In this document: positions 12,294 through 56,533 of the stretch, in pieces
How the letters are laid out: the number at the start of each line of letters is the position of its first letter
Numbering within the stretch: position 1 is the stretch's first letter
IMG/VR virus record: IMGVR_UViG_3300033075_001674
Span: 44,476 to 108,475 of that record
Length of the DNA: 64,000 nucleotides
Strand: one strand, 5' to 3'
Origin: a virus
Taxonomy: Duplodnaviria > Caudoviricetes
The notes under the pieces: generated by a model
Told to the model about the DNA's origin: nothing
The model's input: the letters and a program-made list of their open reading frames with translations, nothing else
The model's database searches: none
Position numbers and translations under genes: made by a program

Positions 12294-12806
12294 TTACTTG
12301 GCTTCGTACCAGGACTGGGCGAGCGTGGGCTCAGCCTTGAGCTTCACTCGCATCTTGTGGTTGAGCTTGCGGAACGGATCCTCCATGCAGCACTTGAGCA
12401 TGCGCATGGCCTCCTCCTTGGTGTCCTCGGGCCCCTCGGTTATGAGCTCGTCGTGAATCTGGGCGAGCACGTTCCATCCGAGGCGCGTATCGAACCCGTT
12501 GTCGTAGAGCTGGATCATGGCCATCTTCGCGCACTCCGCGGCCGACCCCTGGATCTGGAAGTTGGCTGCCTGCCTCCCAGCCCTCCAGCGCTCGAACTCG
12601 TTCGGGCTGCGGGCCTCGGGCAATGACCGCCTCCGACCCAGGATGGTCAGCACGTAGAGGTGCTTGTTCAGGAACTCTTGCGTCTCGGAGAAGAAACGCT
12701 CGACCGCCGGGTAGGTGTCCATGTACTTGCGCATGAGCGCCTCGGCCTCCGTGAGGGAGATGCCGAGGGTGAGGGCCAGCTTCCTCACCTGCATTCCGTA
12801 GTTCAG
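12294..12806 (-). CDS. polA: Family A DNA polymerase, exon 2
   Basis: LNYG, TILGRRR, AANFQIQGSAA, QIHDEL (motif C). Confidence 0.92.
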   Translation of the reverse strand: MNYGMQVRKLALTLGISLTEAEALMRKYMDTYPAVERFFSETQEFLNKHLYVLTILGRRRSLPEARSPNEFERWRAGRQAANFQIQGSAAECAKMAMIQLYDNGFDTRLGWNVLAQIHDELITEGPEDTKEEAMRMLKCCMEDPFRKLNHKMRVKLKAEPTLAQSWYEAK

Positions 12807-14993: not shown

Positions 14994-15003
14994 GCTTGCT
15001 CCT

Positions 15004-15055
15004 AAAAAGAAGCCCATCCCCAGACACCCGTGAAGGCATGTCTGGGGATGGGCTT
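15004..15055 (-). terminator. Intrinsic terminator after SSB gene
   Basis: 17-bp perfect stem aagcccatccccagaca/tgtctggggatgggctt followed by a T tract on the minus strand. Confidence 0.8.
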
Positions 15056-28671: not shown

Positions 28672-29823
28672 TCACCCCTTGATCCGGACCACCGTGCCGG
28701 GTCCCGGTGGGTCGGCATCGGTGAACAGCCCCCACACGATGGGGAAGGGGGTGTACTCCACCTTGTCCCCGTACCCGTCGGTCAGGTAGAGGAGCAACCC
28801 GATCTCCTCGCCCCGAGCGATCAGCTGCTGGATGGGCCAGCTGAAGCAGGTACCCCCGCGCCCCCTCCACGAGAACCCTGCGTTCCGTAGAGCTTCGGGG
28901 GTGACCTCCTCGCTGCTGACCAGAGCGACATCTGCCTGATGGAGGGAGCAGATGTCGAGACCCACGTCATCCATCGCAGCCGCAGCTTCCCTGCAGCACG
29001 CCTTCAGAAGGTTGCTGTGCATCGACCCGGAGGTGTCGACGAGGATGGTGAAGACCGACCGCTCCGCGATCCCTGCGGGCAGAATCACCTCGTCGTCGAT
29101 GAAGCTGCGGCGATGCGGCCTGCTGTAGGTGAACCCGTCGTGCCCGCGCAACCTGCTCAGCTCCCCCCGGAGGGAGTGCTTCAACAGCTCCTGCCAGGAG
29201 AGGGTGGATGTCTCTCCGCACAGGTCAGCCAGGTGCTCCATGTGTCCGCCGTAGAGCCCGCGGTCTCTCGTGGGGATCGCCTTAGCAACCCTCCCGAGCG
29301 CGGACTTCACGACAGAGCGCCCCTTCCCCTCCTTCGAGTAGCGGGACTCAAGCTCCGGGGCAGCGGTGCACTCCCCGCCCCCGCACCCACTGCAGGGGGC
29401 GGCACTACCCCCTTGCTGGAGCAGGAGCTTGTAGTATTCCAGCGTCCCCAGGTGCGGAGGGAGCCCCAGGGTCTCCGGGAGGATCACCCCCTCCACCAAC
29501 GCCTTGCCCAGCGAGCGCCCCACCGAGTTGATGTACGCGTCTGCAGCGAGGTTGAGGATGTGGTGGTTGACCCCCTCCCCCAGCACCGCCCTGGCGGCAA
29601 AAGTGGTGCTGACGTGCATCACCTCGTGCCAGAGCAAGAACGACCTCTCCGGCAGGGGGCGCTGAGAGAAGAACGTGGGGTTGATGAAGAGGAGCATGCT
29701 CTCGCTCACAGCGAGCGTCGCCACCTCTTCCGTGAAGATGGGCACGAGCTCGTAGACGATGTGCGAGAAGTAAGGCTCGGCATTCAGCAGATGGCGCCGA
29801 GCATCGGCCAACCCCGTGGTCAC
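28672..29823 (-). CDS. DUF2201-type metallopeptidase-VWA protein
   Basis: HEVMH (HExxH); VDTSGSM, GRGGT, LTDG (MIDAS); GTGA coupling. Confidence 0.85.
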   Translation of the reverse strand: MTTGLADARRHLLNAEPYFSHIVYELVPIFTEEVATLAVSESMLLFINPTFFSQRPLPERSFLLWHEVMHVSTTFAARAVLGEGVNHHILNLAADAYINSVGRSLGKALVEGVILPETLGLPPHLGTLEYYKLLLQQGGSAAPCSGCGGGECTAAPELESRYSKEGKGRSVVKSALGRVAKAIPTRDRGLYGGHMEHLADLCGETSTLSWQELLKHSLRGELSRLRGHDGFTYSRPHRRSFIDDEVILPAGIAERSVFTILVDTSGSMHSNLLKACCREAAAAMDDVGLDICSLHQADVALVSSEEVTPEALRNAGFSWRGRGGTCFSWPIQQLIARGEEIGLLLYLTDGYGDKVEYTPFPIVWGLFTDADPPGPGTVVRIKG

Positions 29824-31025
29824 GGAGCGGCCTCTCGGTAGAGGCGCACATCCATGCCCTGGGAGATGCGCAGGATCTTCGAGACCACGGGGCGCAGGTG
29901 CGCCGGACCAGAGAGCAGGGACACCGGGAAGTGCTTGCACAGGGACTTCACCACGCCCGTCACCAGGTCCTTGCCCTCCGCCGCCAACATATCCTCGCAT
30001 ACCTTCAGGATGTGCATCGCCTGGCCCACCTTGTCCGCCTCAGGCAGAGCGCGGTACGTTGTGGAGTCGACGTACTGACGAACGCTCTGCATCACGGCGT
30101 ACATGATGTCGAGCCTGCGCGCGTTGGGTGACCACCCCCCAGAGACGACGGTGTGCAGCGGAGGCAGGTCCGCTGCCATCAGGTACTGGAGGAACGCCTC
30201 GGCGATCTTCTTCCCCAGAAGCCCCTCCGCGAACGACACCTTCACGTCCTGGAACCCCAGGACGCTGCACGTGGCCAACGCGTTGAGCGCGAGGTGCCAT
30301 GTCCGAGGGGATGGGTAGGCACCGCTGATGTCTGGGCTCCCGGCCGCCGGGGTTACCTGCAGGAAGGTCGGGTTGGTCTGCATGAAGGCGTGAATCGCCA
30401 TCAGCAGCTGCGACCGCTCCCGGTCGAAGTGAGTCTCCATCTGGCTGCGCAGGTCCTTGAGCTGCAGGGGTGTCCGGTCTGCGGGGTCCTGGGCCAGCCG
30501 CTCTACCCAGTTGTCCGGGGAGGACATCTCGTACTCGATGTGGCACAGGCGGTTGGCCTGGGAGGAGGGGAGCACCCGCCCTCCCGCGGACAGGTGTGGG
30601 GGGTTGAGGGTCGCGAAGATGCGGATGCCCGGGGGGAGGATCCTTCGGCACCACATCCGTTCGTAGATGATGCGGTTGACGGCGGCCGACAGCGCTCGGT
30701 TGGAGTTGAGCTCATCGAGGACGATGATTCCCTCCCCCACCTCGATCATCTCCAGCACCTCCTGGTTGTCCGATAGACGTTCCAGGTACCCGCTGGGGTG
30801 CCGAACGACGATCCCGTTGAGGTCCTCTGTCTCGCAGGACTCGATGGGGAACGCGTAGTGCAGCATCCCCGTCTCACGGGCGAGCGAGCTGAACATCGCG
30901 GATTTCCCACACCCCGGGGGGCCGTGCACCGCGAGAGGTAGACCGAGCGGGCCCTTGTAGGCGGCGTACCCCTCGCCGTAGATCCAGGCAGGGGTGAGAA
31001 GAGCAGCGTAGAGCAGTTTTTCCAT
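29820..31025 (-). CDS. MoxR-type AAA+ ATPase
   Basis: GPPGCGKS; IVLDELN; ATLNP; ANR; SPRTW. Confidence 0.88.
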   Translation of the reverse strand: MEKLLYAALLTPAWIYGEGYAAYKGPLGLPLAVHGPPGCGKSAMFSSLARETGMLHYAFPIESCETEDLNGIVVRHPSGYLERLSDNQEVLEMIEVGEGIIVLDELNSNRALSAAVNRIIYERMWCRRILPPGIRIFATLNPPHLSAGGRVLPSSQANRLCHIEYEMSSPDNWVERLAQDPADRTPLQLKDLRSQMETHFDRERSQLLMAIHAFMQTNPTFLQVTPAAGSPDISGAYPSPRTWHLALNALATCSVLGFQDVKVSFAEGLLGKKIAEAFLQYLMAADLPPLHTVVSGGWSPNARRLDIMYAVMQSVRQYVDSTTYRALPEADKVGQAMHILKVCEDMLAAEGKDLVTGVVKSLCKHFPVSLLSGPAHLRPVVSKILRISQGMDVRLYREAAP

Positions 31026-31037
31026 TTGTTTACCTCG

Positions 31038-31640
31038 CTACTGCTGCCTGTGACAGGAGCAGTGGCACGTGGGGTTGTTGTTGCGCCAGCACTTGCTGTG
31101 GCAGCACAGCGAGCACTCCCCGTTCTCATCGATGCGCATGTCCGGAAGGGAGGGGGTGTCGGGATCGTTTGTGAGCTGAGTCTCCATCTCTGCGATGCAG
31201 CAGAGGCACGCGACTCCATGCAGCTCCTCGCCGGGGACCTCGGACAACATCACCTCCCCGTTGGGGGCCATGTCCCCTGAGACGGAGGCGATGCGGTAGC
31301 AGGCCTCTCCCAGCAGAACCTCTGCTCCGCAGAACTCGCACAGGCCGATGGAGGAGTCAGCGAGCTCTTTACGCTCTGACAAGTTCCAGACACGCGCGTC
31401 CTCCACCCGCACAGGGTTCACGTCGACGGCCTGCTCGACGAGCACGTCGTACACGTCCTCCATGTGGGTATCGCACAGCAGGAGCTGCGGAACGTGGTAC
31501 TCCCCTAGCAGCTCAAGCCCGTCGGGGACGATGAGGGGCGGGGTGTCGGGGAGGAGACGCACCCGCTGAACCAGGTGCATCGTGTGGCGCAGCGTCCCGC
31601 ACAGGGAGCAGCTAAGCGAGCCGTTTCTCGAATGGTCCAT
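31038..31640 (-). CDS. Cys-rich hypothetical protein
   Basis: Multiple CxxC; RBS AAAGGA. Confidence 0.6.
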   Translation of the reverse strand: MDHSRNGSLSCSLCGTLRHTMHLVQRVRLLPDTPPLIVPDGLELLGEYHVPQLLLCDTHMEDVYDVLVEQAVDVNPVRVEDARVWNLSERKELADSSIGLCEFCGAEVLLGEACYRIASVSGDMAPNGEVMLSEVPGEELHGVACLCCIAEMETQLTNDPDTPSLPDMRIDENGECSLCCHSKCWRNNNPTCHCSCHRQQ

Positions 31641-32197
31641 CTACGAGAGATCCTTTCTCGGCTGGGGTCTGGGCCCCGGCCGTTTGCGTCGCAGTCAGCG
31701 ACGAGAACGAACGTCTGCATGTACGGGGTGCTGCCGCTCTCGATGACCGTGCGGGTGAGGGTGGTGCCTGCGGGGATGGGTGTGGCGGCCTGGGCCCTGG
31801 TTTCGTAGCGGAGGACGCACTCCCGGAGGTGGAGATCGTCCTCACTCTCAGCGGTCTCGAAGTACGGGCCCAGCCACCTGTCCGCTGAAGGTGGATAGAA
31901 CCTCTCCGTGGGGCACCAGGGGATGGGCTCGCCTGGCTGGGCGAGGTTGAGGATCACCTCGACATCCCGCTGACAGAAGAAGGTGACCGCCCCAGAAGAG
32001 GTGATGCACCGAAACCTCAAGCCCAGGGACATCGCGGTGGGGTCGCGAGCGAAGGCGTTGGTGATGGTGTAGCGGGAGTCTTCCCCGCGCAGAGGGTTGC
32101 GGATCGACAGGCCGAGGAAGTCCAGAGGCAACTCGATGAGGTTGCTCTTCGGGATCCGATGGTACTCGGCCCTCTCTGGGTCAATCAGCGACGCCAC
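31613..32197 (-). CDS. Hypothetical protein (194 aa, GTG start, TTA end)
   Basis: RBS AAAGGA before GTG; in-frame TTA on both sides. Confidence 0.55.
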
Positions 32198-32200
32198 GGC

Positions 32201-32350
32201 TAATCCTTTCTCCGAGGAGGGCTCGGGCGGCGAGGAGGGCGAGGAGGAAGATGGCGTTGAGGAAGAGTCGCAAGGTTCGGGGTCTCCCAGGAGGAGCTGA
32301 AGGAGGAGGACGAACCACCCCCCGCTGCTTTCGTTGTGGTCGGTAGGCAT
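32201..32350 (-). CDS. Small Ser/Pro-rich peptide (49 aa if TTA is stop)
   Basis: Downstream of GGCATAAG motif; short hydrophobic segment. Confidence 0.35.
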
Positions 32351-32426
32351 GGTGAGATTGCGGCCACGAGAGGCTGCGCACTCTTATGCCTGCGGGTCCC
32401 GAGATTTGCCGTAAACTTGAGACCGC

Positions 32427-35400
32427 ATGGCAACGCTCGATCCCCACGAAGACTTCCAGGAAACGCTCAAGGCGGTCACCAGCGGTCTGCAGGAGGCGTT
32501 CCCCATCAAGGGTCGAACCTCCTCGCTACACCTCGTAAGCGTGCACGCAGGGCAGATGCCCGACCCGGAAGACATCGGTTCGCAGTACGCAACCCGGGTT
32601 GCGGGCAAGAGCTGGATGACCCCAATCCAGGGTGTCATCGAGCTCCGAGACAACGAGACCGGTAAGGTCTTGATGACCCAGAAGACGCGCCTGATGTCGA
32701 TCCCGTCTATGACCAAGCGCTTCTCCTTCATCTACAACGGCCAGGAGCACCAGTCCGCCAACCAGTGGCAGCTCAAGCCGGGGGTCTTCGCTCGTCGCCA
32801 GGACAACGGGGAGCTGGAGGCGCGGTTCAACGTGGTCAACCGTGCGGCCTTCAAGATGAAGTTGGACCCGCAGAGCCAGCTGTTCCACGTCGAGTACAAG
32901 AAGGCGAACCTGCCCGCGTACCCGCTTCTGCGGGCGATGGGGGTCTCTGACCAGCAGATGGAAGAGTCCTGGGGCAAGCAGGTCTTCGAGGCCAACAAGA
33001 AGGTCAAGCGGCAGGCCGGAGTGCTCGCGCAGTTCTACCGCACCAGCACCAACGGGAAAGCCCCCCCGGAGAGCGAGGAGGACCTGGCGGCACACCTGCG
33101 CCAGGTGATGAAGGAGTCGAAGGTGCGCCCCGAGGTGGTCAAGCAGACCCTGGCCCACGAGGTAGACCACGTGGACCACACGCTCATGCTGAACGCCGGC
33201 ACGAAGCTGCTCGCCGTGCAGAACGGCGCCCCCGAGGATGACCGTGACTCGCTGATCTACAAGACGCTGCGCTCCACCGGGGACTTCCTGAAAGACCAGA
33301 TCCAGGCCTCCAGCCGCAACCTGGCCATGAAGGTGCAGCGCCAGCTGAACAAGGGCGACCTCAAGGACATCCGCCACGCCTTCAAGCCAGGGCTCTACGA
33401 CGACGCGGTTCGCAGGCTTTTCCAGAGCTCCCTGGTCAACCCCGCGAAGCAGATCAACCCGGTCGACATGATCGGGACGGCCATGCAGACGACCATCATG
33501 GGGCCCGGAGGAATCAAGAGCGACATCCAGGTCACCGACGCGGCCAAGGAGATCAACCCCAGCCAGTTCGGCATGATCGACCCCCTCACCACCCCGGAGG
33601 GAGGGGCCACCGGCATCTCGCTGCGTCTACCCATCGGGGTGAAGCGGATCGGCGACCAGCCCCACATCCCCGTCTACAGCATCAAGCAGAAGAAGACGAT
33701 CTACGTGAACCCCGCCCAGATGATGGCGGCCAAGAAGGTGTTCGCCGACGAGGTGGAGTACCGCAACGGGGTCCCCCACCCCCTGCGAGAGAAGGTGAAG
33801 GCGCTCGGCAAGGGCAACGAGCCCGAGGTCATCTCGTTCCACGAAGCGGACTACGTGATGAAGGACCCCAGCCAGGTCTACGGCACGACGGTCAACCTCG
33901 TCCCCTTCCTGCAGAACAACTCGGGTGGTCGTGTGTCGATGGCCAGCCGGCACATCGAGCAGAGCATCTCCCTGCGGGACAGGGACAAGCCCTTGGTGCG
34001 GGTGAACGCGCCCGGAGGAACACACACCTTCGAGGAGATGATCGGCCACCAGAGCGCCCACACCGCCCCAGTGGACGGAAGGGTCACCAGGGTCACTGCG
34101 GACGCGATCCACGTGGCGGATGCCTCCGGCAAGGAGCACAAGGTCCACCTCTACAACAACTATCCCGTCAACGACGCCAAGAGCGTCTTGCACTCCACCC
34201 CGCTTGTGAAGGTGGGAGATGCCGTCAAGAAGGGCGGCGTGGTGGCGGACAACAACTACACCCGAGATGGTGTGCTCGCGCTCGGTAAGAACCTCCGCAC
34301 GGCATTCATGAGCTACCACGGCCTGAACTTCGAGGACGGTATCGTCATCACGGAGTCTGCGGCCAAGAAGCTGACCAGCAACCACCTCCACAAGGAGATG
34401 CTCCCTATCCCGGAGGTGAACAACCAGCTGATCTTCGACGCCAAGAAGTTTCAGGCTGCCCACCCGCTGGCGTTCTCCAAGGACCAGCTGGGGCACATCG
34501 GCGCGGATGGCGTCGCGAAGGTGGGGGCCAAGATCCGCCCCGGTGACCCGCTGGTGCTGGCGATGCAGCCGTACCAGCTCAAGGATCGAACCGGCATCGG
34601 AGCAATCCGCAAGAGCCTCACGAACCAGCTGGTCGACAAGAGCCTGCGCTGGGAGTCGGATGTGCCGGGGGAAGTTGTATCTGTCCACCGGAACGATCAG
34701 GGCATCCACGTCCACGTGCGCACCGAGGAGCCTGTGCGCGTAGGCGACAAGCTCTCCCACCGCCACGGCGGCAAGGGCATCATCACCAGCATCCTCCCGG
34801 ACAAGGACGCCCCTCGCAGCAAGGACGGGAAGCCCGTGGACATCCTGTTCCAGCCGGGCGGTCTCGGCGGGCGCATGAATATCGGGCAGGTCCTCGAAGC
34901 ACAGGCCGGGAAGATCGCCGAGAAGACCGGCAAGCCGTACTTCGTCAAGAACTTCGACCCGAAGGTCCAGGATTGGACCCGTCACATGATGGGAGAGCTC
35001 AAGAAGCACGGGCTCTCGGACACCGAGGAGCTGTTCGACCCCAAGACCGGCATCTCCTACGGGCAGGTGATGACGGGCCCCATCCACTTCCTGAAGCTCG
35101 TCCACCAGATGGACAAGAAGGAGTCGATGCGGAGCGGCATGTCTCTGCCCAGGGTACAGAGCAAGGAGAAGTACGACCCCACGACCCTGCAGCCCGCCAG
35201 CGGCGGCGGGACCGGAGGGCAGTCCTGGGGGCAGCTCGGCATCTACGCTCTGCTGGCGCACGGGGCCAAGGGGATCCTGCGCGAGAGTATGACCTACAAG
35301 AGCGAGGGTGAGGACCCGGAGACCAACGAGGCCAAGCGGTGGAGGTCCCAGCACAACGAGGTCTGGAACGCCATCCAGTCGGGGCAGCCCCTCCCTCCCC

Positions 35401-38400
35401 CGAAGCCCACCTTCTCGTTCCACCGCTTCACCGAGCTCATCAAGGGCGCGGGCATCAACGTGGACAAGAAGGGGGACGAGTTCGTGCTGTCCCCTCTCAC
35501 CAACAGCCACATCCTCAAGATGAGCAAGGGGGAGATCTCCGACCCCACGGCCGTGGTGCACTCCAAGCGCGACGAGAACGGGGTCTTCAAGACCATCAAG
35601 GGCGGGCTCTTCGACGACAAGATCACCGGAGGACACGGCGGCACTGGCTGGTCCCACGTGAAGCTGCCGGAGCCCATGCCCAACCCGATCTTCGAGGAGC
35701 CCATCAAGAAGATCCTCGGCATCACGGAGACCACCTACCAGGCCCTGGTGGAGGGCAAGCAGGGGGTCAACCCGCTGACAGGGAAGATCGGCCCCTACGA
35801 GCGCGGGTTCCTCGTAGGGGGCTCGGCGTTCAAGAAGCTCCTCGGGAAGATCGACGTCTCAAAGGAGCTGGCCGCCACGAAGAAGGCCCTCGACTCGGCC
35901 AAGCCCTCCCAGGTCAACCCGCTCTACAAGAAAGCCCGGTACCTCCAGGGGCTGGAGAAGACAGGGATGCGCCCCGACGAGGCGTACGTGCTCGACTACC
36001 TGCCCATCGTGCCCCCCAAGCTCCGCCCTCTGTCCAACCTGGACGACGGAGCGCTGCACTACGACGGTATCAACGGCATGTACAACCAGCTGGGGCAGCT
36101 CACGAACGCGATGAACCACCCATCGCAGAAGATGCTCCCCGATCAGTACAAGGCCGAGGGGCGCAGGGCTCTCTACGACGGGGTGTCCGCTCTCTTCGGT
36201 ACAGCTGCTCTACCCGAGGGAGCCAAGGACAAGGGCATCCTCCACATGATCGCCGGCAGCCAGCCGAAGCGCGGTATCGCCCAGAAGGGCCTACTCTCCC
36301 GCAGGCAGGATGCCTCGGCCCGCGCCACGATCATCCCTGAGCCGAAGCTCGGGCTCGACGAGATCGGGCTACCCAAGGAGATGGCCATGACCATCCTCCG
36401 CCCACAGCTCGTGCGTCAGCTTGTGGTGCAGGGGAGCGCCAAGGATGAGCTGGCAGCGCAGAACCTCCTGGCGGAGGCCCACAAGGGCAAGGAGGACCCC
36501 TCCATCCAGTCCGCCCTCAACAACCTGGCGAACAACGAGCTCGTCATCTCGAAGCGTGACCCTGCGCTGTGGAAGTACAGCGTGCAGGCGTTTCGTCCGC
36601 GCATCGTTGAGGGTAAGGCGATCCGGATTCACCCGCTTGTGACCGGGGGATTCAATGCCGACTTCGACGGCGACAGCGCCAAAGGGCTGGTGCATGTTGA
36701 AGTTTCTACGGAAACCGGGAACAAGGAGGAGATGCCACACCTCGGATCCCTTCCTGTTCATGGGCTCATCAACCTTCGTGACTTTCCCCGCCAGCAACTC
36801 CTTCGGGATGACGGGCGCGTAGCGGTTTACAGCGTGCCGGAGGGGGTGGTGGTGCCCTCCCACCTCAACGGGGTCGGCATCGTGCGGATGCCAGTCACCG
36901 AGTTTTCCATCCACCGTGACTGCCCTCTCTGGAGGGTGACCAGCCGTGCGGGCCGGTTGCTGGAGGTAAGCGAAGACCACTCCCTGGCCACCCTCGACAT
37001 GAACACCCTGGACGTCGTGGAGACCAAGGCGTCGGGAAGCGAGGGCAAGGTCTTCCCTGTCATGCGCGCCCTCGCCCACTCTCACGGCAAGGACGCGTGG
37101 GACACCTCCTGCTTCGAGGGTGTCTCGGAGAGGGGCTACCCTCTTCCCCAGTTCCCTCTCACCAAAGCATCCGGTTGGTTCCTGGGGGCGATGGTTGGGG
37201 ATGGGTGGGTGAGCGACACATCCAAGTACACAAACGGCACAGCCATGCAGATCAGTTTGGCTTACGGGGCGAGGGGGGTTGAGGTAGCAGCCCGGTGGGG
37301 GTCCTTCCTGGATAACCTCGTCCCCGAGATTGCCAAACGATCCTACCGAAACGAGCACGAGTTCGAGGGGAAGCCCGCTCTCTCCTTCCGCGACACTGTG
37401 ACCCACTCCGCTCTCGGGCGTCTCCTCCAGGAGCAGCTCGGGCACGGGGCCCGGAACAAGCACCTGCCCCTCGACTTCCTGGAGTGGAACGAGCAGGCAC
37501 GTCGGGGCCTGCTCGCTGGTCTGCTGGACACGGATGGCTCGGTGACCTGGGTGCACGCGGCGACCAAGAACAAGCCTCAGTTCCAGGCCGCCTACCACAC
37601 CACCTCCGCACAGCTCGCCATCGAGGTCGTATTGCTCTGCCAGTCCCTTGGCATCGTCGCCAGCTACACCGAGTACGCGAAGCGGGACGGGCTCGCCTAC
37701 AACATCTTCCTGTCCACCTCCACGATGCAGGAGGCCACCTGGCTGGACCTGGCCCATCCGGAAAAGAAGGAGGCCCTGGAGCGGCTCTGGGGGAGCGAGC
37801 CTGTGATCTCGGGCAGGGGGGACTGGGTGCCCATGCCCCCGGCTGTCCGGAGCATTCTGCTCACGGAGCTCCGCAAGAAGGGGGCTGCCCGCAAGGAGAA
37901 GACCGAGGAGGGCAAGCGCGCTTTCAGCCTCTACGTGGTACTGAAGAAAGAGGAGCCCATCATCACGCGGGAGACCTTTGCCCTGCTCACCGAGATGCTC
38001 GGGGATGCGGTGTGCAGCGAAGGGCTGATGTCCTCGTGGTACGCGCTCTGCACCAACCCCACGCTCTCCTGGGATGTGGTGGAGACGGCGGAGGACACGG
38101 GGGAGCTCCACGAGATGTACGACCTCACCGTTCCGGACTCCTACACCTTCACGATGGCCAATGGCGCCGTGGTCTGGGACACCATGAGTGTGCAAGCCGT
38201 GCTCTCCGACGAGGCAAAGCGCGACGCGGCTCGCATGCTCCCCAGCAAGAACATCTTCAGCGAGAGCACCGGAGGGGTGGCCTACCTGCCCTCGATGGAG
38301 TCTCTCCTGGGACTCCACCGTCTGTCCCTTGTCGGGCAGTCGAAGGGCGCCTCTTTTAGCCACGACAAGGACGCCATCGCGGCCCTGCACCAGAAGAAGG

Positions 38401-41400
38401 TGAGCCTCGATGAGCAGATCAAGGTCGGGGGTGTAACCACTACCCCCGGGCGAGTCCTGCTCGCTTCGGCGGTGCCGGACGAGATGCGGAACAAGATCCT
38501 CACCGACTTCTCCCTGGAGCTGAACAAGAAGGGCGTGAACGCCGTCTTCACCGAGATCGGGAAGAACCACGCCCCGAGGTTCGCTGCGCTGGCCGACAAG
38601 CTGAAGGATCTGGGGTACGACACCTCGACGGGCATCATCAACACCCCCCTGGCCCCCCAGGGCAAGGTCGGGGTGGGCACCCACTCCTTCAAGCTGTCGG
38701 ACTTCATCGCCGACACCGCCTCTCGCGACCCTCACCTGCACGCCGCGGACAAGGAGGTGGAGGAGCTGAAGAAGAAAGGTCTTCGACCCGAGGAGCTGAA
38801 GCGCCAGATGGCCGAGGCATACCTGCGGGCGGACGTGGCCATCCAGAAGCAGCACGCAGCCTCCGGGAAGATGCAGGACAACGCGCTAGGCAAGATGACC
38901 CGGGCGGGCATGAAGCCCAGCAAGGACCAGTACAAGCAGATGGTCCTGGCTCCGATGGTGATGACCAACTCCAAGGGAGAGCTCATCCCCGTACCCGTGC
39001 GCCGCAGCTACGGGGAGGGTGTGGACCAGATGGGCTACACCGTGCAGCAGGAGGGCGCGCGCAGCGGCACCATCAAGAAGGTGCAGGAGGTACAGGAGCC
39101 CGGGTACATGACCAAGCTGCTGCAGAACACCTCGATGCACACCCTCATCGACACCCACGACTGCGGCACCCAGAAGGGCCTCCTGGTGGGAGTGGGGGAC
39201 TACGACATCATGGATCGCCACCTGGCCACCCCCCTCAAGCTCAAGGGGCTGGACCTGCCCGGGGGGACTCTGCTCAGCAAGGACATCGTGGATCGAATCC
39301 GCAAGGTCGACCCGTCCGCGAAGCTGGTGGTTCGCTCCCCGCTTCACTGCCACTCTGAGAAGGGTGTCTGCCAGAAGTGCTACGGGCTAGACGCCAACGG
39401 CAAGCACCTGACGGTGGGATCCAACGTGGGTGTTCTGAGCGCACACACGCTTGGAGAGCGCGCGGTGCAGCTCACGCTGAAGGCGTTCCACTGCCTCCAC
39501 GAGCACTCCCTTGTGCTCGTTCGGCACAAGGGCAGGGTCTACCACACCACGCTCCGCGCTGTGTTCGAGGGTTCTCCCGGGACGGAGCCCGAGGTCCGGA
39601 TCCCCCAGGATCTCGAGGTGTGGGGGCCGGAGGGGTGGGTTCGCGTGTTGAGCGCGAGCCGCCACCTGCAAGAGCCTGGGACCCAGATGGTCTTTGCGCG
39701 TACACGCTCCGGCTTCGGCCTCCTCAGCCAGGACAACCACCCCCACATGCTCGCAGAGAACCTGGCGGTCTGCGAGCGGTGCGGCACCTACCCCAAGCGA
39801 AGCAACGGAGGAAAGCAGCACTACTGCCGGCGCTGCGGGCGAACCTGGCAGGGCGAGCTCCCGGAGCCAGAAGACTTCCAGATGGTCATGCCGTCCGAGC
39901 TCTCGGAGAAGTCCCACACCGCCAAGGTGAGCTGGGGGCCGAGCCCCACCGAGCAGAACCCACCCCTGCGCTCAGGTTGGCTCGCGGGCATGTTCTGCGC
40001 AGAAGGGTACATTCACGCGCAGAACCGGGAGCAGGGTTCGTATGTGATCGGCTTCGGTATCTCCCAGAACCAGGGCACCCCGGTTTACACCAAGCTCGGA
40101 GCGTGCCTGGCCCAGGAGTTCCCGGAGGCCAGGTTGGGGGCTCGACCCAGGGCCTTCCAGGTCTACGGCCGGGAGCGAGGTCTTTTCTTCGAGAAGACGT
40201 TCGGGAGGTACTCCCGGAACAAGGGGCTGCCGGAGGGGTGGAGCGGTTTGCCTGTGGATTGGTTGGCGGACTTCGTCTCCGGCGTCTTCGATGGGGACGG
40301 CACCCTGGTCTCCACCAAGGACAGCGCCTGGAAAGTTGGAAGGATCGACACCACCAGCTACTTGCTGGCGCAACAACTCCACCACATCTTGCGCTCCAGA
40401 GGGGTCCACTCCCGAGTGCTCCTCTCACCGTGGCGCAAGGCATCTCTGCACCAGGGGTTCGCCGTCACCTTCCCCATCACGGCAGAAGCGAAAGAGATGC
40501 TCTCCTCCGCGCTGAAGTTGGCGAACGTGGAGGCTCGTCCCCACGGAAACGAGGAGCGGTTCGGAGAAGTGGTGGATTACGTGCGCCCCGTGCGGTTCGG
40601 GGCGCCTCCCTGGGTGTACGACCTTGAGACGGAGACCAGCACGCTCTGCGTCAACAACGTGTGGACCCACAACTCCGGCGGAGTCGCTTCGGCAGGCGGA
40701 GGCGCCATCGGGTCTTTCGGTCGCCTGGAGCAGCTGACCTACCTCCCCGACCAGATCCCCAACTCCGCGGTGCACGCGAACGTGTCGGGCAAGATCACCA
40801 AGATCGAGCCAACCCCCACGGGAACGAACATCTGGGTGGGGCAGCACATGCACTTCGTGGGCAAGGACAGCAAGGGCAACCCCCTGCACGAGAAGCAGGA
40901 GGGGGTGTTCCACACCAAGCCCTGGAGCCCCCCGCAGGTGGGCAAGGAGGTGAAGCCCGGAGACTTCCTCTCGGACCCCAACCGCACCCACCTCAACCCC
41001 CACCGCTTCTTCGAGGCCACCAAGAGCATGGACAGGGTGCAAGAGAAGCTCGCCGAGGAAATGCACGGCCTTTACGCAGACGAAGGCGTGCGCAAGCGTG
41101 CTGTCGAGGTGGTGGTGCGCAGCATGGGCAACCTGACCCAGATCGAGCACCCGGGCGGCAGCCCCGACTTCCTGCGGGGGCAGACCTACTCCCGTTCCGC
41201 GGTGGAGCAACTCAACAAGGAGCTCAAGGCCAAGGGTCAGCCCCTGGTGGTCCACAAGCCGGTCTTGCGCGGGGTGAACCTGCTGCCCCTCGACATGACC
41301 ACCGACTGGATGGCCCGCCTCAACCACCAGAAGCTGCGCGGCACCATGATGGAGGGCGCTGCGCAGGGCTGGGCCAGCGACATCCACGGCCGACACCCCG

Positions 41401-41480
41401 TCCCGGGGCTCATGTACGGAGCCGAGTTCGGGCGCAAGAGCATGGATCCTCGGAAGGCAGGCAAGACCAACTTCTACTAA
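32427..41480 (+). CDS. rpoBC: Single-chain multisubunit-type RNA polymerase (fused beta-beta'), two inteins; 2121 aa after splicing
   Basis: Beta: TPEG, GKNL...NFEDGI, GDKLSHRHGGKG, RMNIGQ, LKLVH. Beta': GGLFD..I.G, PPKLRP, RDPAL, NADFDGD, EPGYM, GERAVQLTLKAFH.GG. Confidence 0.95.
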   Translation: MATLDPHEDFQETLKAVTSGLQEAFPIKGRTSSLHLVSVHAGQMPDPEDIGSQYATRVAGKSWMTPIQGVIELRDNETGKVLMTQKTRLMSIPSMTKRFSFIYNGQEHQSANQWQLKPGVFARRQDNGELEARFNVVNRAAFKMKLDPQSQLFHVEYKKANLPAYPLLRAMGVSDQQMEESWGKQVFEANKKVKRQAGVLAQFYRTSTNGKAPPESEEDLAAHLRQVMKESKVRPEVVKQTLAHEVDHVDHTLMLNAGTKLLAVQNGAPEDDRDSLIYKTLRSTGDFLKDQIQASSRNLAMKVQRQLNKGDLKDIRHAFKPGLYDDAVRRLFQSSLVNPAKQINPVDMIGTAMQTTIMGPGGIKSDIQVTDAAKEINPSQFGMIDPLTTPEGGATGISLRLPIGVKRIGDQPHIPVYSIKQKKTIYVNPAQMMAAKKVFADEVEYRNGVPHPLREKVKALGKGNEPEVISFHEADYVMKDPSQVYGTTVNLVPFLQNNSGGRVSMASRHIEQSISLRDRDKPLVRVNAPGGTHTFEEMIGHQSAHTAPVDGRVTRVTADAIHVADASGKEHKVHLYNNYPVNDAKSVLHSTPLVKVGDAVKKGGVVADNNYTRDGVLALGKNLRTAFMSYHGLNFEDGIVITESAAKKLTSNHLHKEMLPIPEVNNQLIFDAKKFQAAHPLAFSKDQLGHIGADGVAKVGAKIRPGDPLVLAMQPYQLKDRTGIGAIRKSLTNQLVDKSLRWESDVPGEVVSVHRNDQGIHVHVRTEEPVRVGDKLSHRHGGKGIITSILPDKDAPRSKDGKPVDILFQPGGLGGRMNIGQVLEAQAGKIAEKTGKPYFVKNFDPKVQDWTRHMMGELKKHGLSDTEELFDPKTGISYGQVMTGPIHFLKLVHQMDKKESMRSGMSLPRVQSKEKYDPTTLQPASGGGTGGQSWGQLGIYALLAHGAKGILRESMTYKSEGEDPETNEAKRWRSQHNEVWNAIQSGQPLPPPKPTFSFHRFTELIKGAGINVDKKGDEFVLSPLTNSHILKMSKGEISDPTAVVHSKRDENGVFKTIKGGLFDDKITGGHGGTGWSHVKLPEPMPNPIFEEPIKKILGITETTYQALVEGKQGVNPLTGKIGPYERGFLVGGSAFKKLLGKIDVSKELAATKKALDSAKPSQVNPLYKKARYLQGLEKTGMRPDEAYVLDYLPIVPPKLRPLSNLDDGALHYDGINGMYNQLGQLTNAMNHPSQKMLPDQYKAEGRRALYDGVSALFGTAALPEGAKDKGILHMIAGSQPKRGIAQKGLLSRRQDASARATIIPEPKLGLDEIGLPKEMAMTILRPQLVRQLVVQGSAKDELAAQNLLAEAHKGKEDPSIQSALNNLANNELVISKRDPALWKYSVQAFRPRIVEGKAIRIHPLVTGGFNADFDGDSAKGLVHVEVSTETGNKEEMPHLGSLPVHGLINLRDFPRQQLLRDDGRVAVYSVPEGVVVPSHLNGVGIVRMPVTEFSIHRDCPLWRVTSRAGRLLEVSEDHSLATLDMNTLDVVETKASGSEGKVFPVMRALAHSHGKDAWDTSCFEGVSERGYPLPQFPLTKASGWFLGAMVGDGWVSDTSKYTNGTAMQISLAYGARGVEVAARWGSFLDNLVPEIAKRSYRNEHEFEGKPALSFRDTVTHSALGRLLQEQLGHGARNKHLPLDFLEWNEQARRGLLAGLLDTDGSVTWVHAATKNKPQFQAAYHTTSAQLAIEVVLLCQSLGIVASYTEYAKRDGLAYNIFLSTSTMQEATWLDLAHPEKKEALERLWGSEPVISGRGDWVPMPPAVRSILLTELRKKGAARKEKTEEGKRAFSLYVVLKKEEPIITRETFALLTEMLGDAVCSEGLMSSWYALCTNPTLSWDVVETAEDTGELHEMYDLTVPDSYTFTMANGAVVWDTMSVQAVLSDEAKRDAARMLPSKNIFSESTGGVAYLPSMESLLGLHRLSLVGQSKGASFSHDKDAIAALHQKKVSLDEQIKVGGVTTTPGRVLLASAVPDEMRNKILTDFSLELNKKGVNAVFTEIGKNHAPRFAALADKLKDLGYDTSTGIINTPLAPQGKVGVGTHSFKLSDFIADTASRDPHLHAADKEVEELKKKGLRPEELKRQMAEAYLRADVAIQKQHAASGKMQDNALGKMTRAGMKPSKDQYKQMVLAPMVMTNSKGELIPVPVRRSYGEGVDQMGYTVQQEGARSGTIKKVQEVQEPGYMTKLLQNTSMHTLIDTHDCGTQKGLLVGVGDYDIMDRHLATPLKLKGLDLPGGTLLSKDIVDRIRKVDPSAKLVVRSPLHCHSEKGVCQKCYGLDANGKHLTVGSNVGVLSAHTLGERAVQLTLKAFHCLHEHSLVLVRHKGRVYHTTLRAVFEGSPGTEPEVRIPQDLEVWGPEGWVRVLSASRHLQEPGTQMVFARTRSGFGLLSQDNHPHMLAENLAVCERCGTYPKRSNGGKQHYCRRCGRTWQGELPEPEDFQMVMPSELSEKSHTAKVSWGPSPTEQNPPLRSGWLAGMFCAEGYIHAQNREQGSYVIGFGISQNQGTPVYTKLGACLAQEFPEARLGARPRAFQVYGRERGLFFEKTFGRYSRNKGLPEGWSGLPVDWLADFVSGVFDGDGTLVSTKDSAWKVGRIDTTSYLLAQQLHHILRSRGVHSRVLLSPWRKASLHQGFAVTFPITAEAKEMLSSALKLANVEARPHGNEERFGEVVDYVRPVRFGAPPWVYDLETETSTLCVNNVWTHNSGGVASAGGGAIGSFGRLEQLTYLPDQIPNSAVHANVSGKITKIEPTPTGTNIWVGQHMHFVGKDSKGNPLHEKQEGVFHTKPWSPPQVGKEVKPGDFLSDPNRTHLNPHRFFEATKSMDRVQEKLAEEMHGLYADEGVRKRAVEVVVRSMGNLTQIEHPGGSPDFLRGQTYSRSAVEQLNKELKAKGQPLVVHKPVLRGVNLLPLDMTTDWMARLNHQKLRGTMMEGAAQGWASDIHGRHPVPGLMYGAEFGRKSMDPRKAGKTNFY
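36675..38180 (+). mobile_element. Intein with LAGLIDADG endonuclease directly after NADFDGD (502 aa)
   Basis: Starts S; block B VSEDHS; FLGAMVGDG and LLAGLLDTDG; block F MYDLTV; ends VVWD|T. Confidence 0.88.
39492..40673 (+). mobile_element. Intein with LAGLIDADG endonuclease in trigger loop (394 aa)
   Basis: FH|CL...VYDLE...THN|SGG; WLAGMFCAEG and FVSGVFDGDG; CxxC zinc ribbon insert. Confidence 0.92.
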
Positions 41481-41489
41481 GATGCCCGC

Positions 41490-42701
41490 ATGACGATGAG
41501 CGGTGGGGTACTCCCCGAGAACCCAGGGGCCCGGATGCCGGAGATGATCGACGCCACGGTCGAGAACTCCTACCCGGACCGCTGGATGGTCGACGTCTCG
41601 GCGGCGAACGGGCGCCGGTGGTTCCCGAAGGTCGTGGTGCTGAACCCCTACCTACACCACGAGGGAGGGGCAGGGATGTCCTTCACCCCACCCCCCGGCA
41701 CACGGGGGGTCCTGCTGCTCCTGTCGGACGGCAGCCCCCCTGCGTTCCTGCCCGGTCTCCCGAACATGCGCCCCTCCTCGGGGGAGCCAGGGGTGCCCCA
41801 GGGCGGCAAGGAGGGGACGAAGACCCCGCTGCAGGAGGCCAGCATGGCCAAGCAGCCGCCCAATGAGCCGCGCTTCGATAACAACCGCCCCCCTCAAGCC
41901 GACGGGGATCAATGCTGGCGGGGAGGCGAGGGGCAGGGGGTGGAGATCCTGGTGGGGGGCGTGGTGCGCTCGTACGCAGGCCCGCTTTGTCAGACCATCT
42001 GGGACGTGCGGGGGAAGCGTACCTCCGCTTGCAGAACCTCGGTCGACTGGTGGGAGGGCGGAGCAGACGCTCAGCGTCGACGCAGCCTCCAGGGAGCCAC
42101 CACCTACGAGACCACCCACGCCTTCCGGGTGAAGGCCACGGAGACCCACGCCAGCTTGCGCGTCCGGGAGGGCAAGTCGCTCCTGGGAGAGCCCGACGGC
42201 TTCAACGCTACCGAGGCCGCAGCTCTGGCGGGTCTCGACCTCGATGACGGCGTGATGGAGATGAGCATCAGCCCCGAGGGCTTCTCCAGCTACGACGGCG
42301 AGGCGGTGAGCGAGCAGACCCGCAACAAGAGCGTGTTCCGCATGCTCGTGACCCTGGGCGGGGGCCTGCTGATCCGGGCTCTGCAGGCCGTGGTGCTCAA
42401 GCTGAAGAGCAAGCTGCGCATCGAGGTGGAGGGGGATATCGTCCTCAGCTCCAAGGGCCGCATCATCCTCGACGGCAAGCAGGGGGTCACCCTGGTCTCC
42501 GACGGCGGGCTGAAGCTCCAGGGCGCTCTCACCCAGGTAGGGGGCGGGGATAAGGGGGTGGCCCGGCAGGGCGACCAGATCCTGTGCACCATCCCTCCGG
42601 GGACCACGGTGGGTGGAGCCCTGCTCGCCCTGCCCCCGGGTCTGTCCTTCTTCTCCGCCACCATCACCAGCCCCGGCAGCCCGGACTTCAAGGTAGGCTG
42701 A
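41490..42701 (+). CDS. Baseplate spike / gpV-like protein
   Basis: N-terminal OB-like P..G...L pattern, beta-repeat C-terminus, VARQGD. Confidence 0.6.
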   Translation: MTMSGGVLPENPGARMPEMIDATVENSYPDRWMVDVSAANGRRWFPKVVVLNPYLHHEGGAGMSFTPPPGTRGVLLLLSDGSPPAFLPGLPNMRPSSGEPGVPQGGKEGTKTPLQEASMAKQPPNEPRFDNNRPPQADGDQCWRGGEGQGVEILVGGVVRSYAGPLCQTIWDVRGKRTSACRTSVDWWEGGADAQRRRSLQGATTYETTHAFRVKATETHASLRVREGKSLLGEPDGFNATEAAALAGLDLDDGVMEMSISPEGFSSYDGEAVSEQTRNKSVFRMLVTLGGGLLIRALQAVVLKLKSKLRIEVEGDIVLSSKGRIILDGKQGVTLVSDGGLKLQGALTQVGGGDKGVARQGDQILCTIPPGTTVGGALLALPPGLSFFSATITSPGSPDFKVG

Positions 42702-56467: not shown

Positions 56468-56533
56468 CCCAAGAAGCCCACGCAGGCGGCATAAGGGCTC
56501 GCAGGGGGAGTACCCCCCTGCGGAAAGGATTTC

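What the first reader, a model, noticed from the sequence alone, without database searches (positions are those of the whole stretch)
32427..41480. Compact single-chain bacterial-type RNAP located among virion genes
Beta and beta' motifs are colinear in one 2121-aa spliced chain, with no obvious beta' N-terminal zinc-binding cysteines at the junction and no alpha or sigma gene in the window. It has the same TAnnnT promoter as structural genes and precedes the spike gene, suggesting late synthesis and possible packaging. It fits the deeply branching RNAP-encoding tailed phages described from metagenomes.
Basis: partly seen in the sequence, partly recalled or inferred. Interest (0 to 1): 0.7.

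Follow-up and report, generated by a model that had tools for sequence, protein, structure and literature searches.

The report
Single-chain phage RNA polymerase with inteins
An uncultured phage of roughly 180 kb encodes its whole bacterial-type RNA polymerase core (beta fused to beta-prime) as one protein interrupted by two self-splicing inteins; it belongs to a large family, for which I found no description, that carries its own sigma factor but no alpha or omega subunit.

Summary
Window 32427-41480 (+) is one 3017-aa ORF. Removing intein 1 (aa 1417-1918, directly after NADFDGD, ending Trp-Asp|Thr) and intein 2 (aa 2356-2749, in the trigger loop, Cys...His-Asn|Ser) leaves exactly 2121 aa. 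That chain is beta joined without a linker to beta-prime residue ~20. The beta-prime Zn ribbon and the SI1, SI2 and SI3 insertions are missing; all catalytic elements are kept.

At least 527 metagenomic relatives exist, mostly intein-free at 2119-2160 aa, on genomes of 170-196 kb. Beta and beta-prime trees each put the viral proteins on one side of a long, fully supported branch from 27-32 bacteria of more than 15 phyla. Complete relatives have one RNAP gene and no alpha or omega. They do have a conserved sigma70-family gene, also present in this contig about 30 kb before the window start.

The gene sits in a conserved block of portal, RNAP, central-spike-like gene and large terminase, behind a positionally conserved TAnnnT. 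The published mReC phages encode beta and beta-prime separately, so the fit to them is loose. Virion packaging remains untested.

Verdict: a real feature and a new variant of a known kind. First readers of this scan also noted a similar single-chain RNAP and Trp-Asp intein on another genome.

The parts
32427..41480 (+). Whole ORF: 3017-aa precursor of a fused beta-beta' RNA polymerase (stop codon TAA)
32427..35477 (+). Beta module (aa 1-1017). Keeps the GDK...RHGGKG catalytic Lys motif and a flap region; lacks E. coli SI1 (b219-354), SI2 (b933-1036) and b1125-1178. Its C-terminus GINVDKKGD aligns with the end of E. coli beta (residue 1342).
35478..36674 (+). Beta-prime N-terminal module (aa 1018-1416). 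It starts at the equivalent of beta-prime residue ~20 with no linker. The Zn ribbon is replaced by GHGG (nt ~35622-35651). The lid and clamp helices are kept, and it ends in NADFDGD (nt 36654-36674).
36675..38180 (+). Intein 1 (502 aa): starts with Ser1, has a block-B-like SEDH and a LAGLIDADG endonuclease domain, and ends with the atypical ...VVWD before Thr+1. It splits the Mg-binding loop.
38181..39491 (+). Beta-prime middle module (aa 1919-2355): bridge helix, second Zn site (C...C..C..C) and the first arm of the trigger loop, ending ...KAFH
39492..40673 (+). Intein 2 (394 aa): canonical Cys1 ... His-Asn | Ser+1 with a LAGLIDADG domain, inserted in the trigger loop. It is 96% identical to the copy in P0002, whose exteins are only 87% identical.
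40674..41480 (+). Beta-prime C-terminal module (aa 2750-3017); SI3 is absent and the C-terminal tail is shortened
32351..32426 (.). 76-bp divergent regulatory gap. TAAACT (32412-32417, + strand) ends 9 nt before the RNAP ATG, with no Shine-Dalgarno sequence. GCATAAG (32383-32389, - strand) faces the divergent operon. Both elements are conserved in relatives.
26633..28642 (+). Portal protein; its linkage to the RNAP gene is conserved from Arash and D69 to this family
28672..32350 (-). Conserved divergent cassette between portal and RNAP: DUF2201 metallopeptidase/VWA-like (28672-30000), AAA ATPase (29820-31025), a small ORF, and a conserved protein of unknown fold (31505-32350; core aa ~55-245)
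41490..42701 (+). 403-aa gene 9 nt after the RNAP stop; probably the central tail spike (gpV/VgrG-like). Low-confidence model, but the spike hits are consistent.
47610..50714 (+). Large terminase (GpA-type ATPase), itself carrying an intein; it closes the conserved portal-RNAP-spike-TerL block

Best explanation
This is the catalytic core of a phage-encoded, bacterial-type, double-psi-beta-barrel RNA polymerase made as a single polypeptide. The precursor (3017 aa) must excise two LAGLIDADG inteins that interrupt the Mg-binding NADFDGD loop and the trigger loop. The product is a 2121-aa beta-beta' chain. The covalent beta-to-beta' junction probably replaces the assembly role of the alpha dimer, and no alpha or omega is encoded. 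Promoter recognition is most likely supplied by a phage-encoded sigma70-family factor that is a core gene of the family. In this genome that factor lies about 30 kb before the window start. It would act on minimal TAnnnT (-10-like) promoters that give near-leaderless mRNAs. The gene is the only RNAP gene of these ~180-kb phages and sits in a conserved portal - RNAP - central spike - terminase block. Shown: the architecture, the intein boundaries, the missing and retained elements, the family, the tree position, the synteny, and the presence of sigma with absence of alpha and omega. Inferred: splicing competence of the Trp-Asp intein, the sigma partnership, the role of the fusion in assembly, and the timing of expression.
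For: Domain order and catalytic motifs. Intein boundaries reproduced by intein-free homologs of 2119-2160 aa. At least 527 homologs in the 1659-5280 aa length class; the 120 best are fused viral forms, on contigs up to ~198 kb. Split relatives (Arash type and others). Beta tree (80 rows) and beta-prime tree (44 rows): cellular sequences on one side of a branch with SH-aLRT 100 (lengths about 1.6 and 1.4), and the fused family one clade at 100. Five of five complete relatives (CheckV 100%, two with terminal repeats) have exactly one RNAP frame and no PF01000, PF01193 or PF01192 match. No alpha in the own contig. Sigma-like gene: own-contig homolog at E 6e-45 to orthologs that pass Pfam Sigma70_r3/r4 cut-offs, PHROG 351, present in 17 of 19 long relatives, and the profile matches SigA/RpoD regions 2.2-4.2 at E 1e-16. 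The WD ending is conserved in at least 10 diverged inteins at this site, and intein 2 is more conserved than its exteins. TAnnnT is conserved at the same place in 4 relatives and found in 5 of 34 clean upstream regions against 1.8% expected per window. Synteny.
Against: No experiment exists on any fully fused member. Intein 1 lacks both the terminal Asn and the penultimate His, so its splicing is assumed from conservation only. The sigma-RNAP contact could not be modelled because the complex server was unreachable. Some E. coli clamp-helix residues important for sigma70 binding are not conserved (for example, R275 aligns with a non-basic residue). Alpha- or omega-like partners too diverged for Pfam, or host subunits, cannot be excluded. 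No archaeal or eukaryotic outgroup was available, so 'deep' means 'outside all sampled bacteria', not a rooted position. The contig is only ~59% complete.
Confidence: 0.8

Rival explanations
1. Virion RNAP. The single chain, perhaps with sigma, is made late, packaged in the capsid and ejected with the DNA to transcribe early genes independently of the host, as N4 vRNAP, crAss gp66 and phiKZ vRNAP do. This concerns timing and location, and is compatible with the enzyme description above.
For: The gene lies between portal and central spike in a block conserved across the family, and the portal-RNAP linkage extends to Arash and D69. There is only one RNAP per genome, so it would have to serve all phases if the host enzyme is not used. 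In Arash the beta+beta'N protein gp206 had the highest spectral count in virion preparations, and gp216 and sigma gp10 were also found (PMC10585845). No terminator excess lies between the RNAP gene and TerL.
Against: The Arash preparation yielded 116 of 272 proteins, including ribonucleotide reductases, and its authors themselves allow carry-over of abundant proteins. Gene position is not proof of packaging. No capsid-targeting signal was identified. TAnnnT promoters could also be read by host sigma70 holoenzyme.
Confidence: 0.35
2. Non-virion RNAP only. Host RNAP transcribes the early genes, including this gene and the sigma gene, and the phage enzyme then takes over middle and late transcription (T7-like logic with a multisubunit-type enzyme).
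For: The promoter-proximal TAnnnT resembles a generic sigma70 -10 element. The enzyme keeps the sigma-type architecture, and the phage encodes sigma factors as T4-like phages do. Two inteins must splice before the enzyme is active, which does not favour an immediate-early role for newly made protein.
Against: The position in the morphogenesis block and the Arash mass-spectrometry data. No canonical -35/-10 promoter is found in the region.
Confidence: 0.5
3. A member of the published mReC lineage (Weinheimer & Aylward 2020) in which beta and beta-prime happen to be fused.
For: Same concept: tailed phages with a bacterial-like RNAP branching outside cellular clades. Beta-only relatives of ~1020-1150 aa exist in the same viral superclade, lengths that resemble one mReC class.
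Against: All mReC rows I read list separate beta and beta-prime proteins, and no entries with the checked lengths (2131-2150) appear. Fused-family IMG/VR contigs from pre-2020 metagenomes are not in the mReC tables. The mReC TerL is PF03237 and the MCP is PF07068, whereas here TerL is GpA-type and PF03237 is sub-threshold in complete relatives. No mReC sequence could be placed in my trees.
Confidence: 0.3
4. A recently captured cellular rpoBC (for example from a bacterium with a natural fusion), or bacterial contamination of the contig.
For: Natural rpoB-rpoC fusions exist in Helicobacter and Wolbachia (my own knowledge). Sequence similarity to bacterial beta and beta-prime is easily detected.
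Against: Identity to any bacterium is only 25-35%, even in the catalytic segment, and is equal across phyla. Both trees separate all cellular rows from the viral ones by a long branch at 100. The gene is embedded in conserved phage synteny. The Zn ribbon is lost.
Confidence: 0.03
5. A decaying or inactive gene: the non-canonical intein 1 cannot splice, so the product is dead.
For: Intein 1 ends in Trp-Asp instead of His-Asn, and no solved relative was found.
Against: It is the only RNAP gene. The frame is intact over 3017 codons with strong GC3 coding bias. All catalytic residues are kept. The same WD|T/S ending recurs in at least 10 diverged inteins at this site in otherwise intact proteins.
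Confidence: 0.05

Closest known systems
Salmonella phage Arash gp206 + gp216 (also Vibrio phages D69, D181, D148), the closest cultured relatives
   Same: Same viral RNAP superclade, 32% identity over beta plus beta-prime N. Beta is fused to the N-terminal part of beta-prime without a Zn ribbon. The portal lies just upstream. The phages encode sigma factors, and genomes are ~180-187 kb.
   Different: Arash-type enzymes are two polypeptides (about 1525 + 606 aa), split after the catalytic loop. Here the whole core is one chain and carries two inteins. The Arash paper annotates the proteins only as beta and beta-prime subunits and does not discuss the fusion.
mReC phages (Weinheimer & Aylward 2020, PMC7481178)
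   Same: Metagenomic tailed phages with a bacterial-like RNAP outside cellular clades.
   Different: Their beta and beta-prime are separate adjacent genes, sometimes in two sets per genome. They have a T4-type MCP and a PF03237 TerL. No sigma or fusion is described.
phiKZ/AR9 jumbo-phage multisubunit RNAPs
   Same: Phage-encoded relatives of beta and beta-prime that work without alpha and omega (PMC7598289 and PMC7824862).
   Different: Those are split into 4-5 polypeptides, come as virion and non-virion sets, are far more diverged, and lack sigma70-type factors. Here there is one chain, one set, easily recognised homology and a sigma70-family partner.
crAss-like phage gp66 and YonO single-chain RNAPs
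   Same: Both DPBB domains lie in one polypeptide. By my own knowledge, gp66 is virion-packaged.
   Different: Those show no HMM-detectable similarity to COG0085 or COG0086 and lack most beta and beta-prime domains. This protein keeps nearly the full bacterial core.
Cellular RpoB-RpoC fusions (Helicobacter, Wolbachia) and the engineered tethered E. coli beta-beta' (my own knowledge)
   Same: The beta C-terminus is joined to the beta-prime N-terminus. This shows such a fusion is structurally tolerated.
   Different: Those remain ordinary members of their bacterial clades, keep the Zn ribbon and lineage insertions, and still use alpha2 and omega.
Inteins with a C-terminal Asp or Gln (for example the Chy RIR1 type; my own knowledge) and RNAP-subunit inteins of archaea and algae
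   Same: A non-Asn terminal residue can still support splicing, and RNAP catalytic subunits are known intein hosts.
   Different: Here Asp is combined with Trp in place of the penultimate His, at a site immediately after the catalytic DFDGD. This allele type appears specific to this phage RNAP family.

Membership tests
Bacterial-type multisubunit RNAP core (beta/beta-prime, double-psi beta-barrels) | Beta DPBB with catalytic lysines (GDK...RHG.KG) and Pfam Rpb2_6 above cut-off | tested here: met
   PF00562 at 175 bits against a 23.4-bit cut-off; motif aligned to E. coli b1060-1080
Bacterial-type multisubunit RNAP core (beta/beta-prime, double-psi beta-barrels) | Beta-prime NADFDGD Mg-binding loop, bridge helix, trigger loop and second Zn site | tested here: met
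   All aligned and conserved after intein removal; PF00623 and PF04998 above cut-off
Bacterial-type multisubunit RNAP core (beta/beta-prime, double-psi beta-barrels) | Beta-prime N-terminal Zn ribbon (four Cys) | tested here: not met
   E. coli b'64-99 is replaced by GHGG here and across the family
Bacterial-type multisubunit RNAP core (beta/beta-prime, double-psi beta-barrels) | Partner subunits alpha2 and omega encoded or used | tested here: not met
   No PF01000, PF01193 or PF01192 match in 5 complete relatives, and no PF01000 in the own contig. Use of host subunits is not testable here.
Bacterial-type multisubunit RNAP core (beta/beta-prime, double-psi beta-barrels) | Sigma70-family initiation factor | tested here: met
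   A conserved phage sigma-like gene in 17 of 19 relatives; profile against SigA/RpoD at E 1e-16. Physical binding was not tested.
mReC (Weinheimer & Aylward 2020) | Beta and beta-prime encoded as two proteins detected separately by COG0085 and COG0086 | tested here: not met
   A single ORF here; mReC tables list separate proteins
mReC (Weinheimer & Aylward 2020) | RNAP clusters with mReC sequences in a clade outside cellular life | tested here: inconclusive
   It lies outside all sampled bacteria, but no mReC, archaeal or eukaryotic sequences were available for the tree
mReC (Weinheimer & Aylward 2020) | T4-type MCP (PF07068) and TerL of family PF03237 | tested here: inconclusive
   The window TerL is PF05876. 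PF03237 is only sub-threshold in 2 of 5 complete relatives. PF07068 is absent, but the control search rang nowhere.
phiKZ/AR9-type jumbo-phage RNAPs | Beta and beta-prime each split into two or more polypeptides, with two paralogous sets (virion and non-virion) | tested here: not met
   One unsplit frame per complete genome
crAss gp66 / YonO-type single-chain RNAPs | Only the DPBB cores are retained, with no profile-detectable beta or beta-prime homology | tested here: not met
   Five beta and beta-prime Pfam domains and full-length PDB matches
Canonical class 1 intein (intein 2) | Cys/Ser1, terminal His-Asn, a nucleophile at +1, and a precise in-frame insertion relative to intein-free alleles | tested here: met
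   C...THN|S; junction FH|SGG compared with FH|(M/T)GG in intein-free homologs
Canonical class 1 intein (intein 1) | Terminal Asn preceded by His | tested here: not met
   It ends ...VVWD|T. Ser1, the block-B-like SEDH, block-F-like YDLTVP..., Thr+1 and the precise insertion are all present. Splicing chemistry is not testable here.

The most novel reading that the evidence does not exclude
A minimal sigma70-dependent RNA polymerase that needs no alpha and no omega. One 2121-aa chain is packaged with its sigma into the virion next to the portal and ejected to start host-independent transcription from minimal TAnnnT promoters that give leaderless mRNAs. Newly made enzyme is gated by two protein-splicing steps, one of which uses an unusual Trp-Asp terminus.
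Probability: 0.2. Interest if true: 0.8.

Novelty: new variant of a known kind. Interest (0 to 1): 0.6.

Why it matters
Phage RNAPs related to the cellular enzyme are known in three forms: heavily split (phiKZ, AR9), unrecognisably diverged single chains (crAss, YonO), or two-gene sets known only from metagenomes (mReC). This family is different. It is a nearly complete bacterial core compressed into one polypeptide, without alpha, omega, the Zn ribbon or lineage insertions, yet it is paired with a recognisable sigma70-type factor. It is also abundant, with hundreds of sequence clusters and complete 170-196 kb genomes. This offers a natural test of how much of the bacterial holoenzyme is dispensable, and of whether covalent beta-beta' linkage can replace alpha-dependent assembly. 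It is also a candidate compact, sigma-programmable RNAP for in vitro work. Cultured cousins (Arash and the Vibrio phages) make the packaging and host-independence questions testable. The family is an intein hot spot, with six or more sites all inside catalytic motifs, including a conserved non-canonical Trp-Asp intein.

Tried and rejected
- Complex prediction (beta-prime aa 1017-1416 with the sigma-like alignment) was requested ten times and the server was never reachable (and one paired retry). No verdict exists.
- The search for related loci with the single protein found nothing because it uses exact peptides; the alignment query worked.
- The look-up of encoding contigs has no record of P0001.
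- Pfam sigma domains alone miss the contig's sigma-like gene. It was found only through orthologs in relatives.
- The strong ECF-like sigmas of relatives G002, G004 and G005 have no counterpart in this 59%-complete contig.
- GCATAAG by itself is not enriched in the window (3 matches against 2.0 expected). Only its intergenic bias across the contig is notable, and some copies overlap Shine-Dalgarno-like AAGGAGG.
- The sigma70 consensus promoter scan found 0 sites, and terminators were not above chance.
- The spike model is poor (pLDDT 56), so its fold matches have low TM-scores.
- The divergent neighbour 31505-32350 folds well but matches nothing (Foldseek E > 0.1; VIA best Z 4.6, rmsd 3.1 over 58 residues). 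No alpha-like fold was seen, which does not exclude one. The ESM Atlas gave only scores below 0.9.
- PDB sequence searches for the inteins and the neighbouring genes found nothing, or only a marginal PI-PkoII hit.
- Literature searches for a fused phage rpoBC found no description.
- The mReC supplement was searched for fused-length entries and for contigs of this family, and none were found.
Full report
**What is there**

The window is the last 64 kb of a 108,475-bp IMG/VR viral contig that CheckV rates about 59% complete. Positions 32427-41480 (+) form a single ORF of 3017 codons ending in TAA. It has strong third-position GC bias (0.88) and no in-frame TTA, TAG or TGA.

Pfam finds beta domains (Rpb2_3, and Rpb2_6 at 175 bits). 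These are followed by beta-prime domains (Rpb1_1, Rpb1_2, Rpb1_5), and by LAGLIDADG and intein-splicing domains. Bacterial beta and beta-prime chains in the PDB match different halves of the protein at E about 1e-75 to 1e-62.

**Inteins and the 2121-aa product**

BLAST against Salmonella RpoB and RpoC and against phage homologs places two large insertions.
- Intein 1 is aa 1417-1918 (nt 36675-38180). It begins with Ser directly after NADFDGD and ends ...VVWD before Thr.
- Intein 2 is aa 2356-2749 (nt 39492-40673). It has the canonical Cys...His-Asn|Ser form and sits in the trigger loop after ...KAFH.

Independent proof comes from relatives. Most of the 120 best homologs are 2119-2160 aa, and they read NADFDGD|TMAV and LTLKSFH|(M/T)GGV straight through both sites. 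Each intein has a LAGLIDADG_3 domain above the Pfam cut-off.

**Anatomy of the spliced chain (E. coli numbering)**

The beta C-terminus (GINVDKKGD, aligning with E. coli ...GINIELEDE-1342) runs directly into the equivalent of beta-prime residue ~20. The fusion is therefore head-to-tail with no linker.

Missing elements:
- beta 1-23
- SI1 (b219-354)
- SI2 (b933-1036)
- b1125-1178
- beta-prime 2-19
- the Zn ribbon (b'64-99, replaced by GHGG, all four Cys gone)
- SI3 (b'945-1132)
- the last ~18 residues

Retained elements:
- the catalytic Lys motif GDK..RHGGKG
- NADFDGD
- the lid and clamp helices
- the bridge helix
- the second Zn site
- both trigger-loop arms

The compactness is thus mostly the absence of lineage-specific insertions plus loss of the Zn ribbon. 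The same N-terminal sequence (GGLFD.K.TGGHGG..W) is conserved across the family.

**The family**

A search of 5.8 billion proteins gave at least 527 hits in the 1659-5280 aa length class. The 120 best are all fused viral forms, 43-87% identical, on contigs up to about 198 kb.

Shorter relatives show other split states:
- Arash-type beta+beta'N (1440-1525 aa), paired with a separate beta'C of ~600-620 aa
- beta-only proteins of ~1020-1150 aa
- betaC+beta'N proteins of ~1000 aa

True cellular beta subunits appear only at 27% identity. The closest cultured phages are Salmonella phage Arash and Vibrio phages D69, D181 and D148, at 32% identity.

**Phylogeny**

I pulled 80 named bacterial rpoBC loci from many phyla. 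All are 30-35% identical in the most conserved beta-prime segment, so no phylum stands out as a donor.
- Beta tree (80 rows, 959 columns, LG+G4): all 32 cellular rows lie on one side of a branch (SH-aLRT 100, combined length about 1.6) and all 48 viral rows on the other. The fully fused proteins form one clade at 100.
- Beta-prime tree (44 rows, 1045 columns): the same result, with Arash and D69 as sister to the fused clade.

Three caveats apply: there was no archaeal or eukaryotic outgroup, the search was the 'quick' kind without a mixture model, and treekit flagged a long-branch join in the beta-prime tree.

**Relation to mReC**

The mReC paper's tables list beta (about 1000-1400 aa) and beta-prime (about 900-1200 aa) as separate, usually adjacent, proteins, sometimes in two sets per contig. 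No entries with the checked lengths (2131-2150) occur. Fused-family IMG/VR contigs from older metagenomes, including one metagenome shared with mReC, are not listed.

mReC phages were characterised by PF07068 capsids and PF03237 terminases. Here TerL is GpA-type (PF05876). Complete relatives give only sub-threshold PF03237 matches and no PF07068 match, although the PF07068 control search also rang nowhere.

I therefore treat this as a parallel or related lineage with a different architecture. Direct co-phylogeny was not possible. I found no paper that describes a fully fused phage beta-beta' of this type.

**Accessory subunits**

Five relatives are complete genomes of 185-196 kb (CheckV 100%, two with terminal repeats). 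Each has exactly one RNAP frame of 2148-2188 aa. None has an alpha match (PF01000, PF01193) or an omega match (PF01192). The own contig has no PF01000 match either.

Sigma is different. Sigma70_r4 rings in 5 of 5 complete relatives (3 above cut-off) and Sigma70_r2 in 2 of 5. The own contig shows nothing by Pfam alone. However, the weaker sigma-like ORFs of G001 and G005 have a clear homolog at contig C1:14059-14853 (E 6e-45 and 1e-33), about 30 kb before the window start.

Evidence that this ORF is a sigma factor:
- Its orthologs pass the Pfam cut-offs for Sigma70_r3 and r4, and all hit PHROG 351 'RNA polymerase sigma factor'.
- An ortholog is present in 17 of 19 long relatives, and in 16 of the 17 that are at least 90% complete.
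- A profile of 17 orthologs matches SigA/RpoD from region 2.2 to 4.2 at E 1e-16.

The likely holoenzyme is thus a single-chain core plus a phage sigma. That the two bind is an inference, because the complex prediction could not be run.

**Genomic context and regulation**

The gene at 26633-28642 is the portal (E 6e-71 to Arash gp204). Across dozens of related loci the order is conserved:
- portal (+)
- DUF2201/VWA-like, AAA ATPase and a small conserved ORF (all -)
- RNAP (+)
- the 403-aa gene
- further conserved genes of 686 and 465 aa
- TerL (+)

The 403-aa gene starts 9 nt after the RNAP stop. Its model is poor (pLDDT 56). Even so, about 20 of the best Foldseek hits are central spikes, at E 3e-4 to 3e-2 with low TM-scores: phi92 gp138, the R2 pyocin spike, VgrG and CIS spikes, and the phiKZ spike.

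The 76-bp gap before the RNAP gene holds two elements, both conserved in four relatives with 54-75% RNAP identity. One is TAAACT, ending 9 nt before the ATG with no Shine-Dalgarno sequence. The other is GCATAAG on the opposite strand, facing the divergent operon.

In the contig, TAnnnT ends 5-14 nt before the start codon in 5 of 34 genes with clean upstream gaps, against 1.8% expected per random window. The shared-element observation therefore has some support, and it suggests near-leaderless mRNAs. No sigma70-consensus promoter and no terminator excess occur between the RNAP gene and TerL.

**Inteins as a family trait**

Twenty-six of the 120 best homologs carry inteins, at six or more sites: TPEG|, GDK(L/M)|, NP|, AHGA(R)|, NADFDGD| and FH|. 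All lie in catalytic-core motifs.

At the NADFDGD site at least ten diverged inteins end in VVWD|T/S, while others end HN|T or SN|T. Because each phage has only this one RNAP gene, conservation of the WD ending argues that it splices.

The closest relative, P0002 (exteins 87% identical), lacks intein 1 but has intein 2 at 96% identity. P0003 has both inteins plus a third. This pattern points to recent homing.

**Packaging**

The only experimental hint is the Arash virion proteome. There gp206 had the highest spectral count, and gp216 and sigma gp10 were also present. However, 116 of 272 proteins were detected, and the authors allow carry-over of abundant proteins. Together with the conserved portal-RNAP-spike position and the single RNAP per genome, I rate packaging at about 0.35.

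**Verdict**

This is a functional-looking, single-chain, sigma-type phage RNAP of a large family for which I found no description: a new variant of a known kind.

Noticed in passing
window 47610-50714 (+): The large terminase (GpA-type ATPase, PHROG 675) also carries an intein (Intein_splicing/PT-HINT at aa ~120-537), so this phage has at least three inteins in essential genes.
   Followed up: no
window 13536-13538 (- strand), between ORFs 13536-15017 and 12294-13532: The DNA polymerase is split by a single in-frame TGA (...AYG-TGA-R-M...). The two ORFs hit consecutive parts of PHROG 17 (positions 671-1071 and 1072-1233). This may be read-through or recoding, or a two-piece polymerase.
   Followed up: partly
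window 31505-32350 (-) codons 50 and 246; contig C1:13696-14862 codon 114: In-frame TTA codons bracket the conserved, confidently folded core of the RNAP's divergent neighbour (aa ~55-245). Another sits just before homology begins in the sigma-like ORF. The 3017-codon RNAP has none. This fits other scan notes that TTA may terminate translation in this phage.
   Followed up: partly
window 32383-32389 (-), 56489-56495 (+), ~61055 (+); further copies elsewhere in the contig: CATAAG is the most intergenic-enriched hexamer in the contig: 7 of its 10 copies lie in the 6% of sequence that is non-coding, and each intergenic copy points toward its downstream gene. Three window copies lie ~40-45 nt before a start codon, often after a hairpin plus TTCTTTAGC tail. 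This may be a second promoter class, although some copies overlap AAGGAGG ribosome-binding sites.
   Followed up: partly
window 28672-31025 (-): A DUF2201 metallopeptidase/VWA-like protein plus an AAA (MoxR-like) ATPase form a conserved divergent pair between portal and RNAP in 44-50 of 80 related loci. Their function is unknown; they may be an assembly chaperone pair.
   Followed up: no
window 31505-32350 (-): A conserved protein found in 56 of 80 loci, sharing the RNAP's regulatory gap. Its core folds confidently (pLDDT 77-94), but it has no Foldseek match and no VIA match above Z 4.6.
   Followed up: yes
proteins P0067, P0069, P0070 (relatives, not the window): Three intein-bearing homologs read NADFDGN|C... 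at the residue before the intein, so their spliced product would carry Asn in place of the third catalytic Asp. This could be real variation or could need some other explanation.
   Followed up: no
contig C1:13696-14862 (outside the window, ~30 kb before its start): A divergent sigma70-family gene that is a core gene of the phage family. Relatives G002, G004 and G005 carry additional ECF-size sigma genes with no counterpart in this incomplete contig.
   Followed up: yes
locus L096 / record G006: One 177-kb relative (95% complete) is classed by IMG/VR as a provirus, unlike the others, which are linear or have terminal repeats. I did not examine this.
   Followed up: no
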